Positions 58,688 to 61,524 of a stretch of 64,000 nt of DNA are shown here, piece by piece. The position numbers and the translations under genes were made by a program. Source of the stretch: Escherichia phage UGJNEcP3; sequence record OV876907; one strand, written 5' to 3'. A model generated the notes under the pieces. It was not told the DNA's origin. It was given only the letters and a program-made list of their open reading frames with translations, and made no database searches. Each line of letters opens with the position of its first letter. The stretch's first letter is position 1.

Positions 58688-59242
58688 TCAGTTCTTGTAG
58701 AACCGGAACGGGTTTACATGGAAGGCTAACATGGCCTTAGGGATTTTACGAGACAAAAGGCTCTTAAGCTTCCAACCACAGTACACGCGAAGGTAAAAGG
58801 TAATCCCACCAACCTTAAGATATGGAACTGAAGCAAATACACCCCAGGCGTCGTCATTCCACATCCATAACCACCCGTGATGAGCTTTATCAGGAGAACC
58901 GGATTCAACGTCGGGATTACCACGATAATGGAATTCTGAGCTACAATCACGACCGAGTTTATGGTAAGCAAAGTTATAAGCTTTATTTCGCCATAGCCAA
59001 GCTACTCTCTGGAGATAAACACCACCTGGCATTTTCCTGATTTTAGCCCAACGTTTAATGTGACCTTTGTCACCGTCAATTGGATTATCGTATGTCATCA
59101 TCCAATCAAAGCCATAAGGCAATTTACCGGTCTTTTTATTGTGGAAAGGAACTACAAAAGGCGCAAGGATAACAGCCAGAACCATAGAGATAAAATCCAG
59201 TGGAACCAACAGAACCCAACTCAAATATTTTAAAAGTTTCAT
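58688..59242 (-). CDS. membrane-anchored protein (184 aa)
   Basis: N-terminal TM segment; ATG 59242 preferred over TTG at 59263. Confidence 0.45.
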   Translation of the reverse strand: MKLLKYLSWVLLVPLDFISMVLAVILAPFVVPFHNKKTGKLPYGFDWMMTYDNPIDGDKGHIKRWAKIRKMPGGVYLQRVAWLWRNKAYNFAYHKLGRDCSSEFHYRGNPDVESGSPDKAHHGWLWMWNDDAWGVFASVPYLKVGGITFYLRVYCGWKLKSLLSRKIPKAMLAFHVNPFRFYKN

Positions 59243-59286
59243 ATATTTCTCTAATTTAACCAAAAAAGCACCAGATGGGGCTTTCG

Positions 59287-59751
59287 TTATTTGATTTGTT
59301 TAGCGGACCAGATACGGTCTTTGATGATTTTCTGAATATCTTCAACATACTCTAAGTCGTGAGCATGCGGATTATCTTTGAAGCTATGTGCTCGTGCCAG
59401 TTTCTGGCCTTCTGTTTTGATTACTAAAAGCTCTTTAAGAATTGCTTCATACTTAGAAATAATTCCTTTGGCGATATTTTTTTCTTGAGCGGCTTTAGGG
59501 TCCGCTTTTGTAGCAGGTGCTTTACCTGTAGCTTTCTGGAACAATTCACCTGATGCAGCTAGGCTTTTAAAAACTCGGCTAACAGTATTAGCATTAGTAA
59601 AACCTTCGGCTTTAAAATCTCTAATAAAACGGAAACGTTCTTCATCAGAGGCGTCTTTGTAAGAATATTTACCTGCTTGAATTGCTGCAATCGCAGCGGC
59701 TTTTACATCTGAACTAGATTGTTCAGTCAAAAATTCATTGTAAGTTTTCAT
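59287..59751 (-). CDS. internal-protein-like cargo, CTS MKTYNEFLTE
   Basis: CTS; 154 aa. Confidence 0.55.
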   Translation of the reverse strand: MKTYNEFLTEQSSSDVKAAAIAAIQAGKYSYKDASDEERFRFIRDFKAEGFTNANTVSRVFKSLAASGELFQKATGKAPATKADPKAAQEKNIAKGIISKYEAILKELLVIKTEGQKLARAHSFKDNPHAHDLEYVEDIQKIIKDRIWSAKQIK

Positions 59752-59791
59752 TATTATTTCCTAAGTTAATTAACTTATCTATTTATTATGC

Positions 59792-59820
59792 CAAAAAGCC
59801 CCAACCTTTCGGAAGGGGCT
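59792..59820 (-). terminator. intrinsic terminator downstream of tRNA/small-RNA cluster
   Basis: AGCCCC...GGGGCU hairpin followed by U-run on minus strand. Confidence 0.6.
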
Positions 59821-59861
59821 ATGCCTTGCGGCAACCTTGTCGGGGTTCCACCTGCTAGGCA

Positions 59862-60201
59862 AGTGTTTGTACGAAACGCCGGGATTCGAACCCGGTTATT
59901 AAGTAGTTGACGCTACTCAATATTTTTAAAAGGCCATATCTCGACCATATCCGAACGTTCCGTCAAAAACGCTACTCGGCTTACGGCAAAGATATTTCCT
60001 CGAATCGATAATTCGGTGCGCCGTTTCTGCTGTGATGTAAGGGGGCGTTAACAGATCGTAAAGATTTGTTAATGCCAGTCCTTACTCAGGGAACATCAGT
60101 CCGACGACTTACCGGTAGCGACCCGGTTTCTTGTTTGTTGCGCCGGTGAATGCTGGTAATCAGTCTTCATACGACGGCTTGACTATATAATAGTCTTCAT
60201 T
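59862..60201 (-). ncRNA. candidate stable small RNA(s) with tRNA-like 3' T-arm
   Basis: 340 nt with no ORF between tRNA-Arg and terminator; CCGGGTTCGAATCCCGG T-arm at 59880-59896 but no acceptor/anticodon fold; local hairpins; T4 has stable RNAs next to tRNA-Arg. Confidence 0.35.
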
Positions 60202-60276
60202 TGGTATCCCGCCCTGGGATCGAACCAGGACCGCAAACTTAGAAGGATCGTATGCTATCCATTACACCAGCGGGAC
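60202..60276 (-). tRNA. tRNA-Arg (anticodon TCT)
   Basis: 75 nt incl. encoded CCA; acceptor GTCCCGC/GCGGGAT, T-arm CCTGG-TTCGATC-CCAGG, anticodon loop CTTCTAA; folded by hand. Confidence 0.75.
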
Positions 60277-60281
60277 ATAGT

Positions 60282-60359
60282 TGGTGACCCGGACCAGATT
60301 TGAACTGGTAACCTTTCCCTTATGAGGGGACTGCTGCTAACCAATTGAGCTACAGGGCC
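60282..60359 (-). tRNA. tRNA with anticodon CAT (Met, or Ile if C34 is modified)
   Basis: 78 nt incl. encoded CCA; T-arm ACCAG-TTCAAAT-CTGGT; anticodon loop CTCATAA; acceptor stem with one mismatch; folded by hand. Confidence 0.65.
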
Positions 60360-60364
60360 TTAAT

Positions 60365-60631
60365 TTAAATTACAAATCCAGCAGGAGCATTATCATCTTT
60401 AGCCATGTGCTGAATTGTATGATAAGTCATTTCTTCAGGAGCAACCAGATAAGCCGCAACGTTAACTAGTGGAATTATTTTTGGTTTAGCGAACGTGCTA
60501 TCAGAAATTGCCATAAAGGGCTCGCCATCGGTCTCAACTTCACCAAATTGGCATTCATATGAAATAGAACAACGTTTGGTAGTTGTTGTCTTGGTTTTAG
60601 GGTCATAAAAAGCTAATTTCAATACTAACAT
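60365..60631 (-). CDS. hypothetical protein (88 aa)
   Basis: ATG 60631 with SD GAGGTG. Confidence 0.4.
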   Translation of the reverse strand: MLVLKLAFYDPKTKTTTTKRCSISYECQFGEVETDGEPFMAISDSTFAKPKIIPLVNVAAYLVAPEEMTYHTIQHMAKDDNAPAGFVI

Positions 60632-60760
60632 AAACACCTCAAATAAAATTAAGTAAAGTAAGTTTTATTAATAGACCTTGTCTATTATGAAAGGTTCTTT
60701 GAGGGAAGAACCTTTGGTAATAGAGGGTATTAATGATAGAGTAATAATATCACATAATTC

Positions 60761-61246
60761 TTAAAGCATATTAAGTGCTTTAACACTAGGTATTTGGATT
60801 TCTTCTTCAACGATGTACAGCTTAACATAAGAAATTACACGGATGAAATCGCCATCATATTCACAAGCCATACCAAGGAGCTCAGTAAGAGCTTCATTCA
60901 AGTAGTATGCTTCTTCATCGTCATTCAACAAGGCTTCTAAGTCTTGAATACCTAGGACCTTATCTAAAAATTCCGGAGTCAACTGGCCCGATTTTACACC
61001 AGATTCAATGTGAGCAATAACCAAATGCTTAACTACGCCCCAGTCTTCGTTACCACATTTATCCGGGCTGTTACAATGCGAACCATGGAAAAGTTCTAAG
61101 ATATATTTGTACTGTTGGATTTCCTGTTCTTCTACACCAAATACAGTCTGGGTTTTATAGTTATCACCATCATTTTCCCAGGTTTCGATTTCAAGAACAT
61201 AACCTTTAGGAATAACTTGTCCAAATTTAATATTCATTGCGGCCAC
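60761..61246 (-). CDS. hypothetical acidic protein (161 aa)
   Basis: ORF. Confidence 0.45.
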   Translation of the reverse strand: MAAMNIKFGQVIPKGYVLEIETWENDGDNYKTQTVFGVEEQEIQQYKYILELFHGSHCNSPDKCGNEDWGVVKHLVIAHIESGVKSGQLTPEFLDKVLGIQDLEALLNDDEEAYYLNEALTELLGMACEYDGDFIRVISYVKLYIVEEEIQIPSVKALNML

Positions 61247-61524
61247 ATATTAATGTAATCAAGTTTAATAGAAGCAATCTTCAAAGGATTTTTAAAGATG
61301 TCGTATTCGATCAATCCATTTTCAGTTGCGGTATAAAAAGTAAAGTTAACAGAATTATAACGATGGCTGTTAACTTTGAGTTTAACATCGCTTGAACTAC
61401 GGCCAATATTAACCTGTTGAACATCAAGCACAGCATCTTTGCCGTAATTTCGAATCAACAACTCGGCTGCAACCTGGTCTGAATTATAGCCGTTCTCCGG
61501 ATTAGTAACCTTAACGTATAGCAT
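61234..61524 (-). CDS. hypothetical protein (96 aa)
   Basis: ORF. Confidence 0.4.
   Translation of the reverse strand: MLYVKVTNPENGYNSDQVAAELLIRNYGKDAVLDVQQVNIGRSSSDVKLKVNSHRYNSVNFTFYTATENGLIEYDIFKNPLKIASIKLDYINMWPQ

What the first reader, a model, noticed from the sequence alone, without database searches (positions are those of the whole stretch)
59862..60359. Only two tRNAs, followed by a 340-nt non-coding stretch with a tRNA-like T-arm
Hand folding gives tRNA-Arg(TCT) and a CAT-anticodon tRNA, both with encoded CCA. The downstream ORF-free 340 nt ends in a perfect CCGGG-TTCGAAT-CCCGG T-arm but has no acceptor or anticodon arms, then a strong terminator. T4 has eight tRNAs and stable RNAs C and D next to tRNA-Arg, so this may be a reduced tRNA set plus one or two stable small RNAs.
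Basis: partly seen in the sequence, partly recalled or inferred. Interest (0 to 1): 0.5.

Follow-up and report, generated by a model that had tools for sequence, protein, structure and literature searches.

The report
T4 stable RNAs C and D locus
The non-coding stretch after the two tRNA genes is this phage's copy of the long-known T4 "stable RNA" genes rnaD and rnaC, whose function is still unknown; comparing related phages shows that rnaC folds into a tRNA-shaped RNA whose body is closed by two loops that pair with each other.

Summary
All features lie on the minus strand. ARAGORN and Rfam find exactly two tRNAs in the 64 kb window, both with encoded CCA: a CAT-anticodon tRNA (60359..60282) and tRNA-Arg(TCT) (60276..60202). 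No further tRNA or tmRNA lies in the 340 nt that follow.

That stretch is the ortholog of phage T4 rnaD (species 2 RNA) and rnaC (species 1 RNA). rnaC matches T4 at 138 of 139 positions. The rnaD core matches at 105 of about 116, with a 66-nt segment at its 5' side that is specific to Dhakavirus-type phages. The window is 100% identical to Escherichia phage UGJNEcP4. One detail is wrong: the T-arm does have an acceptor stem, and its 5' strand lies 130 nt upstream at the 5' end of rnaC.

Across 21 distinct homologs, a four-way tRNA-like fold is strongly supported by covariation. The fold includes a 6-bp loop-loop (kissing) pairing, UUGACG with CGUCAA, that covaries twice. In some genera the element sits inside tRNA arrays like a tRNA gene.

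The function remains unknown. My best guess, at low confidence, is a tRNA "top-half" mimic cut out by the tRNA-processing enzymes. The element itself is already known; the structure model appears not to be catalogued, since Rfam has no family for it.

The parts
60282..60359 (-). tRNA with CAT anticodon and encoded CCA. It is the ortholog of T4 tRNA-Ile(CAU), which automatic tools call tRNA-Met.
   Evidence: ARAGORN; Rfam tRNA 49.9 bits; alignment to T4 tRNA-Ile shows 2 differences in the tRNA body, and T4 lacks the encoded CCA.
60202..60276 (-). tRNA-Arg(TCT) with encoded CCA.
   Evidence: ARAGORN; Rfam 48.8 bits; 75/75 identical to T4 tRNA-Arg.
60015..60201 (-). rnaD (T4 species 2 RNA) homolog, 187 nt if its 5' end abuts the tRNA-Arg CCA as in T4. 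The conserved core is 60131..60015.
   Evidence: Alignment to the annotated T4 rnaD; core identity 105 of about 116. RNAalifold on 6 variants gives a hairpin ACCGG/CCGGU plus a long stem, with one U-A to A-U compensation. Fold z-score -3.9.
60132..60197 (-). 66-nt segment absent from T4 and JS10, lying between the tRNA-Arg CCA and the rnaD core. It folds into two predicted hairpins and contains a 9-nt direct repeat, ATGAAGACT.
   Evidence: Gap in the T4 row of alignment A1. Found in only 26 Dhakavirus-type records, all at least 98.8% identical. Repeat D4; fold.
59870..60008 (-). rnaC (T4 species 1 RNA) homolog, 139 nt, a tRNA-like four-way fold.
   Evidence: 138/139 identical to the annotated T4 rnaC. 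Single hit of covariance model R1 in the window, 166.5 bits. Full 54-pair structure is 95.1% paired, with 18 compensated pairs.
60001..60007 (-). rnaC acceptor-like stem, 5' strand CGAUUCG. It pairs with 59878..59872.
   Evidence: Compensatory changes A-U/G-C at pair 3; phiR1-RT type CAGUCCG/CGGACUG is fully compensated.
59931..60000 (-). rnaC long hairpin P2, in the D-arm position, closed by the invariant AGG/CCU. Its apical hexaloop UUGACG is at 59966..59961.
   Evidence: Independent MFE folds of divergent homologs give the same arm; pair counts.
59897..59922 (-). rnaC hairpin P3 (10 bp), in the anticodon-arm position. Its hexaloop CGUCAA (59912..59907) is complementary to the P2 loop, giving a 6-bp kissing interaction.
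   Evidence: 9 of 10 stem pairs show compensation. The loop-loop helix is 100% paired in 21/21 sequences, with A-U to G-C (4 sequences) and C-G to U-A (2 sequences) double changes.
59879..59895 (-). rnaC T-arm, CCGGG-UUCGAAU-CCCGG.
   Evidence: Sequence; 2 of 5 pairs compensated, 100% paired.
59872..59878 (-). rnaC acceptor-like stem, 3' strand CGUUUCG. It is followed by U (59871, the discriminator position) and then ACA where a tRNA has CCA.
59821..59869 (-). 3' trailer between rnaC and the terminator. It is conserved with T4 and kept in phages that have lost rnaC.
   Evidence: Alignment A1; JS10/LQ5 sequences; trailer plus terminator 73/77 identical to T4.
59793..59820 (-). Intrinsic terminator of the tRNA/stable-RNA operon: AGCCCC..GAAA..GGGGCU followed by UUUUU.
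   Evidence: Sequence; conserved with T4. PMC2330249 states that T4 tRNA-cluster transcription ends after the species I RNA gene.

Best explanation
The locus is the tRNA/stable-RNA operon of a Dhakavirus-type T4-like phage, reduced to two tRNAs and followed by the orthologs of T4 rnaD (species 2 RNA) and rnaC (species 1 RNA).

Shown here:
- The homology and gene order.
- The fold of rnaC. It has a 7-bp terminal acceptor-like stem stacked next to a canonical T-arm, which together form a tRNA 'top half'.
- In place of the D and anticodon arms, rnaC has a roughly 70-nt hairpin (P2) and a 10-bp hairpin (P3). Their hexaloops pair with each other, UUGACG with CGUCAA.

Inferred:
- The RNAs are co-transcribed with the tRNAs up to the terminator at 59820..59793. 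They are released by the host tRNA-processing machinery, with RNase P at the 5' side of the acceptor stem and an endonuclease plus exonuclease trimming at the 3' side.
- This fits the element's position in Karamvirus-type phages, where it occupies a tRNA slot with 6-9-nt spacers.

Function is not established. My committed guess, at about 25% confidence, is that rnaC is a non-decodable mimic of the tRNA acceptor/T-arm half. It would occupy a host factor that recognises that half of tRNA, such as a processing or modifying enzyme or a tRNA-directed defence nuclease, and rnaD would be a separate structured RNA from the same precursor. The confidence figure below refers to identity, structure and biogenesis, not to function.
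For: Identity:
- The window is 100% identical to Escherichia phage UGJNEcP4, a Dhakavirus.
- Alignment to the annotated T4 rnaD and rnaC gives rnaC 138/139, tRNA-Arg 75/75 and trailer plus terminator 73/77.

Structure:
- Divergent homologs fold independently into the same four-way architecture.
- On 21 distinct sequences, 93.1% of cells are paired, against 34-47% when partners are slid. 19 of 35 pairs have compensatory changes, and 0 of 500 shuffles reach the observed values.
- The kissing helix is paired in 21/21 sequences, with two independent double substitutions.
- The full 54-pair model is 95.1% paired.

Context:
- In Entb_43 and VPA32 the element lies between tRNA-Trp and tRNA-Gly. The same arrangement occurs in L028 and L017.
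- T4 RNAs C and D are detected as abundant late RNAs by RNA-seq and Northern blot (PMC9697503).
- T4 transcription runs through the whole cluster and ends after species I RNA (PMC2330249).

Leads on function:
- A convergent SNP in rnaD arose in all lines of a T4-like phage adapted to a semi-permissive host (PMC12685909).
- T-even tRNA loci act against tRNA-cleaving defences such as Septu (PMC13096335).
Against: - No expression or end-mapping data exist for this phage.
- The T4 annotation puts the 5' end one nucleotide upstream of the acceptor stem and the 3' end at UA rather than CCA, so canonical RNase P and CCA processing is not proven.
- rnaC is dispensable in nature. It is precisely absent from JS10 and LQ5 and destroyed in AV115.
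- The T-loop is degenerate in one lineage, MY742 with UGCAUGC.
- Reviews state that the function is unknown (PMC3014915).
- Nothing here identifies a binding partner.
- Covariation cannot tell an intramolecular kissing pairing from an intermolecular (dimer) one.
Confidence: 0.85

Rival explanations
1. The stretch is decayed tRNA genes: non-functional remnants of the six T4 tRNAs this phage lacks, with only a T-arm surviving.
For: There is a perfect T-arm but no tRNA call. The element is lost in some relatives.
Against: The stretch aligns to T4 rnaD and rnaC, which lie downstream of tRNA-Arg, not to the missing tRNAs, which lie upstream of tRNA-Ile. Strong compensatory covariation, including a tertiary loop-loop pairing, shows selection on the RNA fold. 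T4 RNAs C and D accumulate as stable RNAs.
Confidence: 0.03
2. rnaC is a cis-acting processing or stability module. In this view the tRNA-like end recruits RNase P and 3' trimming enzymes to punctuate the polycistronic precursor, and the excised RNA has no function of its own.
For: It always lies in tRNA operons, either inside arrays or just before the terminator. It has a tRNA-like acceptor/T-arm minihelix.
Against: A punctuation signal needs only the acceptor/T-arm. Yet P2, P3 and their kissing loops are conserved and compensated. The excised RNA is stable and abundant in T4.
Confidence: 0.15
3. rnaC and/or rnaD are trans-acting base-pairing regulatory RNAs that target host or phage mRNAs.
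For: The literature calls them small regulatory RNAs of unknown function. A convergent SNP in rnaD arose during host adaptation.
Against: In rnaC nearly every conserved nucleotide is engaged in intramolecular pairing. The conserved single-stranded parts are short and A/U-rich. No target is known. The central hairpin of rnaD is hypervariable.
Confidence: 0.15
4. rnaC is an aminoacylatable tRNA-like RNA, comparable to the tRNA-like domain of tmRNA, that enters translation-related pathways after 3' repair to CCA.
For: It has an acceptor stem, a T-arm and a U at the discriminator position. Copies in PWKp18, Clarke_MM3 and related contigs (PWKp18 is classified as Marfavirus) encode a true CCA after it, and position 75-76 'CA' is invariant.
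Against: The window and T4 have ACA, and the T4 annotation ends the RNA at UA. There is no G3:U70 and no tag reading frame. ARAGORN's tmRNA search and the Rfam scan (no match to any family beyond the two tRNAs) are negative. The acceptor stem carries two conserved U-U mismatches.
Confidence: 0.05
5. The stretch encodes small proteins, as many GenBank phage records annotate.
For: Many records list one to three 'hypothetical protein' CDSs over the homologous region. ORFs of 27-40 aa exist here.
Against: The substitution pattern is compensatory for RNA helices. The ORFs are short, lie on both strands and are interrupted by indels between relatives. T4 curators annotate the region as RNA genes.
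Confidence: 0.02

Closest known systems
Phage T4 rnaC (species 1 RNA, RNA C)
   Same: 138/139 identical. It has the same position after rnaD and before the same trailer and terminator, and the same fold.
   Different: Essentially nothing, a single U/C difference in a bulge of P2. The structure model with a terminal acceptor stem and covarying kissing loops is my addition. I found no such description in Rfam or in the papers I could read.
Phage T4 rnaD (species 2 RNA, RNA D)
   Same: The conserved 5' part (AGAAACCGGGUCGCUACCGG...) and 3' part (...CACAGCAGAAACGGCGCACC) are shared, and the position directly after tRNA-Arg is the same.
   Different: The central hairpin diverges. A 66-nt Dhakavirus-specific segment lies between the tRNA-Arg CCA and the core, so the primary product could be about 187 nt instead of 119 nt.
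Canonical tRNA
   Same: A 7-bp acceptor-type stem formed by the two ends, an adjacent 5-bp T-stem with UUCGAAU loop, a single nucleotide in the discriminator position, residence in tRNA arrays, and a four-way junction.
   Different: No D-arm and no 7-nt anticodon loop. A 70-nt arm and a 10-bp arm with hexaloops kiss each other instead. ACA stands in place of CCA, and the acceptor stem has two U-U mismatches. It fails ARAGORN and the Rfam tRNA model.
tmRNA tRNA-like domain
   Same: The acceptor stem is formed by the distant 5' and 3' ends, with a T-arm next to the 3' strand and a large insertion replacing the anticodon region.
   Different: 139 nt against roughly 350 nt for tmRNA (size from general knowledge). 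No tag ORF, no G3:U70, no pseudoknot series, no encoded CCA here, and no hit by ARAGORN or Rfam.
Bacterial Y RNA YrlA tRNA-like module (comparison from memory of Chen et al. 2014, not re-read here)
   Same: A non-coding RNA that copies the acceptor/T-arm part of tRNA and is handled by tRNA enzymes.
   Different: As I recall, the tRNA-like module in YrlA is internal and the ends form the Ro-binding stem, whereas here the ends form the acceptor stem. The Rfam scan gave no match to any family here.

Membership tests
T4 rnaC (species 1 RNA) | Sequence homology to the annotated T4 rnaC over its full length | tested here: met
   138/139 identical to HM137666 rnaC.
T4 rnaC (species 1 RNA) | Position in the tRNA operon, downstream of tRNA-Arg and rnaD and upstream of the operon terminator | tested here: met
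   Alignment A1 shows the same order and the same trailer and terminator.
T4 rnaC (species 1 RNA) | Accumulates as a stable RNA of about 140 nt in infected cells | not testable with these tools
   Shown for T4 only (PMC9697503). No data for this phage.
T4 rnaD (species 2 RNA) | Sequence homology to the annotated T4 rnaD, directly 3' of tRNA-Arg | tested here: met
   Core identity 105 of about 116. The 5' and 3' conserved blocks are intact, with a 66-nt extra segment at the 5' side.
tRNA | Cloverleaf with D-arm and a 7-nt anticodon loop, detectable by ARAGORN or by the Rfam RF00005 model at or above 29 bits | tested here: not met
   No call in 59862..60201. The best match is a tRNA-Sec alignment of 17 bits, E=1.9, which uses an internal pseudo-acceptor without covariation support.
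tRNA | Acceptor stem formed by the 5' and 3' ends, next to a T-arm | tested here: met
   Pairs 60007..60001 with 59878..59872, with compensatory changes. T-arm 100% paired.
tRNA | 3' CCA end, encoded or added | tested here: not met
   The window and T4 encode U-ACA. Only the PWKp18/Clarke_MM3-type (Marfavirus-type) copies encode U-CCA. Post-transcriptional addition cannot be tested here.
tmRNA | tRNA-like domain with G3:U70 plus a tag-peptide reading frame and pseudoknots | tested here: not met
   ARAGORN reports no tmRNA and the Rfam scan reports no tmRNA family. Pair 3:70 is A-U or G-C.
Any Rfam 15 family other than tRNA | Match at the gathering score | tested here: not met
   Only the two tRNAs reach threshold. 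Nothing credible at E up to 10 in 59700..60450.

The most novel reading that the evidence does not exclude
rnaC-type RNAs would be a dedicated family of phage tRNA 'top-half' mimics. The acceptor/T-arm would be presented on a rigid body closed by a kissing loop, so that it cannot be decoded or cut in an anticodon loop. These RNAs would act as decoys or sponges for a host tRNA-recognising factor, for example a tRNA-directed defence nuclease or a processing or modifying enzyme. That would explain both their patchy, accessory distribution and the host-adaptation signal seen next door in rnaD.
Probability: 0.2. Interest if true: 0.7.

Novelty: already known. Interest (0 to 1): 0.3.

Why it matters
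The locus itself is textbook T4 biology, so the finding does not reveal a new kind of element. It matters in three smaller ways.

1. RNAs C and D have had no known function for about fifty years. A covariation-backed model turns that puzzle into direct experiments. The model has a terminal acceptor stem, a T-arm and two arms locked by a covarying 6-bp loop-loop pairing.
2. The family has no Rfam model. Many phage records annotate spurious proteins over it, and ARAGORN sometimes calls a false 95-nt tRNA-Met inside it.
3. The element sits in a region now known to carry counter-defence tRNAs in T-even phages, which makes a host-interaction role worth testing.

Tried and rejected
- Extra tRNA, tmRNA or any catalogued RNA family in the 340 nt: rejected. 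The searches (ARAGORN's tRNA and tmRNA scan and all 4227 Rfam 15 families) returned only weak chance-level hits.
- The tRNA-like reading that pairs the 3' strand with the internal ACGGAACG. This is what the tRNA-Sec model picks up in the window and what ARAGORN calls in L028. It is 84% paired but has no compensatory change and is no better than shuffles. It breaks in the phiR1-RT, Kosakonia and Klebsiella types.
- A bacterial origin or bacterial copies. A structural DNA pattern gave 53 hits in 185,579 species genomes, all from unrelated GC-rich bacteria, and none matched the covariance model at E up to 1. They are chance matches next to real tRNAs.
- Wider phage distribution. Three pattern scans of IMG/VR and one of metagenomes returned only enterobacterial T4-like contigs.
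- Origin of the 66-nt segment. BLAST finds it only in 26 near-identical Dhakavirus-type records, always at this site. It shows only a weak resemblance to the rnaD 3' end (repeat D2). Its origin is unresolved.
- A T4 late promoter (TATAAATA) near the locus: none found. The sigma-70-type scan showed nothing above chance.
- Flanking proteins: all belong to PHROG families of unknown function.
- Literature: six successful full-text searches found no functional or structural study of RNA C or D beyond 'unknown function'. The 1970s sequence papers and Miller et al. 2003 are not held.

Full report
**What is there.** All relevant features are on the minus strand.
- ARAGORN finds only two tRNA genes in the 64 kb window: a CAT-anticodon tRNA at 60359..60282 and tRNA-Arg(TCT) at 60276..60202.
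- The Rfam tRNA model agrees, with 49.9 and 48.8 bits.
- Both genes are followed directly by an encoded CCA.
- The next 340 nt (60201..59862) hold no ORF above 40 aa and no further tRNA or tmRNA.
- A permissive Rfam scan gives nothing there except a 17-bit tRNA-Sec alignment at E=1.9.
- The perfect T-arm CCGGG-UUCGAAU-CCCGG lies at 59895..59879.
- A G+C-rich hairpin with a U-run lies at 59820..59793.
- The stretch folds far better than shuffled sequence, with z = -5.1.

**Identity.**
- The window is 100% identical to Escherichia phage UGJNEcP4, a Dhakavirus of the Tevenvirinae.
- About 800 T4-like phage records match the 340 nt.
- In curated T4 records the matching DNA is annotated as rnaD ('species 2 RNA', 119 nt) followed by rnaC ('species 1 RNA', 139 nt), directly after tRNA-Arg.
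- In the pairwise alignment, tRNA-Arg is identical (75/75), rnaC differs at one position (138/139) and the rnaD core matches at 105 of about 116. The 3' trailer plus terminator match at 73/77.
- The CAT tRNA is the ortholog of T4 tRNA-Ile(CAU). It differs in that its CCA is encoded, which T4's is not.
- Compared with T4, the six upstream tRNAs (Gln, Leu, Gly, Pro, Ser, Thr) and the segB homing endonuclease gene are absent.

- The T-arm is not an orphan. In relatives from other genera the 3' strand after the T-arm always pairs with the very 5' end of rnaC.
- The pairs are CGAUUCG/CGUUUCG here and in T4, CGGUUCG/CGUUCCG in the Karamvirus, Moonvirus, Kanagawavirus and Marfavirus types, and CAGUCCG/CGGACUG in Yersinia phage phiR1-RT.
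- rnaC is thus a 137-nt four-way junction with these parts:
  - a 7-bp acceptor-like stem (60007..60001 with 59878..59872);
  - a long hairpin P2 (60000..59931);
  - a 10-bp hairpin P3 (59922..59897);
  - the T-arm;
  - a U at the discriminator position, followed by ACA.
- Single-sequence MFE folds of divergent homologs mostly recover this architecture independently (seven of nine; the VPA32 and PWKp18 folds differ in the body).

**Covariation.** I collected 21 distinct homologs from GenBank phages and IMG/VR and aligned them (A3).
- For the helices common to all, 93.1% of cells form standard pairs, against 34-47% when partners are slid by 1-3 columns.
- 19 of 35 pairs show compensatory double changes. 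No shuffle out of 500 reaches the observed pairing or covariation score.
- For the 14 sequences with the T4-type P2, the full 54-pair model is 95.1% paired, with 18 compensated pairs.
- The apical hexaloop of P2 (UUGACG, 59966..59961) is perfectly complementary to the hexaloop of P3 (CGUCAA, 59912..59907).
- That complementarity is kept in 21 of 21 sequences through two separate double substitutions. One is UUGGCG/CGCCAA in the Klebsiella-phage (Marfavirus-type) group. The other is UUGAUG/CAUCAA in the phiR1-RT group.
- This is good evidence for a 6-bp kissing-loop contact. Whether it forms within one molecule or between two cannot be decided from sequence.
- The rival pairing of the 3' strand with an internal ACGGAACG has no compensatory support. 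That pairing is what the tRNA-Sec model aligns here and what makes ARAGORN call a 95-nt 'tRNA-Met' in contig L028.
- The invariant AGG/CCU at the base of P2 and the invariant A-rich linker never vary, so they may do more than pair. This is speculation.

**Context and distribution.**
- In Karamvirus-type phages (Entb_43, VPA32, L028) and L017 the rnaC homolog lies inside a tRNA array, for example between tRNA-Trp and tRNA-Gly. Its spacers are 6-9 nt, like those of any tRNA gene.
- In T4-, RB69- and Dhakavirus-type phages it is the last gene before the terminator.
- It is separable and dispensable. JS10 and LQ5 keep rnaD and the trailer but lack rnaC precisely. In AV115 a deletion has fused the T-loop of tRNA-Asn to the T-loop of rnaC.
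- A covariance model of the family finds one copy in the window at 166.5 bits. It finds none among 53 bacterial loci that matched a loose DNA pattern.
- Pattern scans of IMG/VR and metagenomes return only enterobacterial T4-like contigs.

**rnaD and the extra segment.**
- rnaD has conserved 5' and 3' blocks and a hypervariable central hairpin.
- RNAalifold proposes a small hairpin plus a long stem closed by GUCGUCG/CGGCG(C)AC, with one U-A to A-U compensation.
- In this phage, 66 nt (60197..60132) lie between the tRNA-Arg CCA and the rnaD core.
- This segment occurs only in 26 near-identical Dhakavirus-type records and folds into two hairpins. It contains a 9-nt direct repeat. Its origin and fate are unknown.

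**How it probably works.**
- Shown: homology, gene order and the RNA fold.
- From the literature: in T4, transcription runs through the tRNA cluster and ends after species I RNA (PMC2330249). RNAs C and D accumulate late in infection (PMC9697503). Their roles are unknown (PMC3014915; PMC12685909).
- Inferred: the acceptor/T-arm minihelix makes rnaC a substrate for the tRNA-processing enzymes, which cut it out of the precursor. The excised RNA cannot be decoded because it has no anticodon loop, and it ends without CCA.
- My committed but weak guess, at about 25%, is a decoy for a host factor that reads the acceptor/T-arm half of tRNA.
- Two indirect leads support a host-interaction role. One is a convergent rnaD SNP in phage lines adapting to a semi-permissive host. 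The other is recent evidence that T-even tRNA loci counter tRNA-cleaving defences (PMC13096335).
- The rivals are a pure processing module, a base-pairing regulator and a chargeable tRNA-like RNA. The last is prompted by PWKp18/Clarke_MM3-type (Marfavirus-type) copies that encode a true CCA.

**Verdict.** This is a correct call on a known element. The locus is an ortholog of T4 rnaD and rnaC in a phage with a minimal tRNA set. Interest is modest for the finding as such. The structure model and the absence of the family from Rfam are the useful by-products.

Noticed in passing
L092 (Escherichia phage AV115, OR352945.1) 853-940: The annotated 'tRNA-Asn' is a chimera. Its 5' part is tRNA-Asn, joined inside the T-loop to the last 31 nt of rnaC plus the trailer. 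The acceptor and T stems no longer pair. It looks like a deletion of tRNA-Arg, rnaD and most of rnaC by recombination at the shared GGTTCGAATCC.
   Followed up: partly
L028 (IMG/VR contig 2700989062_000001) 8491-8585, minus strand: ARAGORN calls a 95-nt 'tRNA-Met(cat)' inside the rnaC homolog, using the internal ACGGAAC as acceptor strand and P3 as a long variable arm. That pairing has no covariation support, so this is probably a recurring false tRNA call in T4-like genomes.
   Followed up: yes
L005 (JS10) 1195-1440 and L007 (LQ5) 1120-1500: These Dhakavirus-type genomes keep rnaD and the 3' trailer and terminator but lack rnaC exactly (junction GCGCAC[A/C]GAA|CACTTGCC). LQ5 also carries the 66-nt segment.
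   Followed up: partly
window 60132-60197 (minus strand): A 66-nt segment between tRNA-Arg and the rnaD core is absent from T4 and JS10. It contains the 9-nt direct repeat ATGAAGACT (60200..60192 and 60170..60162) and two predicted hairpins. It is confined to 26 near-identical records, and its origin is unknown.
   Followed up: partly
L009, L010, L025, L026, L027, L083 (Klebsiella-phage, Marfavirus-type rnaC homologs): These copies encode a genuine CCA after the discriminator-position U (CGTTCCG-T-CCA), whereas T4 and the window have ACA and phiR1-RT has TCA. The 'CA' at positions 75-76 and the following A are invariant in all 21 sequences.
   Followed up: no
L003 (Enterobacter phage vB_ECC_MY742) about 1207-1355: This rnaC homolog has a degenerate T-loop (UGCAUGC instead of UUCGAAU) and CGCCU instead of the otherwise invariant GGCCU, while all helices and the kissing loops are intact.
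   Followed up: no
window 59910-59918 and 59969-59977: The 9-mer GAGTAGCGT (minus strand) forms the 5' strand next to the loop in both P2 and P3 of rnaC. This could reflect an internal duplication or could be a by-product of the complementary loops.
   Followed up: no
homologous region in many GenBank phage records (table): One to three 'hypothetical protein' CDSs are annotated over rnaD and rnaC in many T4-like genomes. Only a few curated records (T4, RB3, RB10, RB55, RB59, RB68, Kha5h) name the RNA genes.
   Followed up: no
window 60282-60359 versus L001 2503-2579: The CAT-anticodon tRNA here encodes its CCA end, whereas the almost identical T4 tRNA-Ile gene is followed by TAT. In T4 a segB gene separates it from tRNA-Arg; here the spacer is 5 nt.
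   Followed up: partly
window 58691-59751 and 60368-61524 (minus strand): All five ORFs flanking the RNA locus belong to PHROG families of unknown function (phrog_14864, 2290, 2023, 2280, 2143).
   Followed up: no
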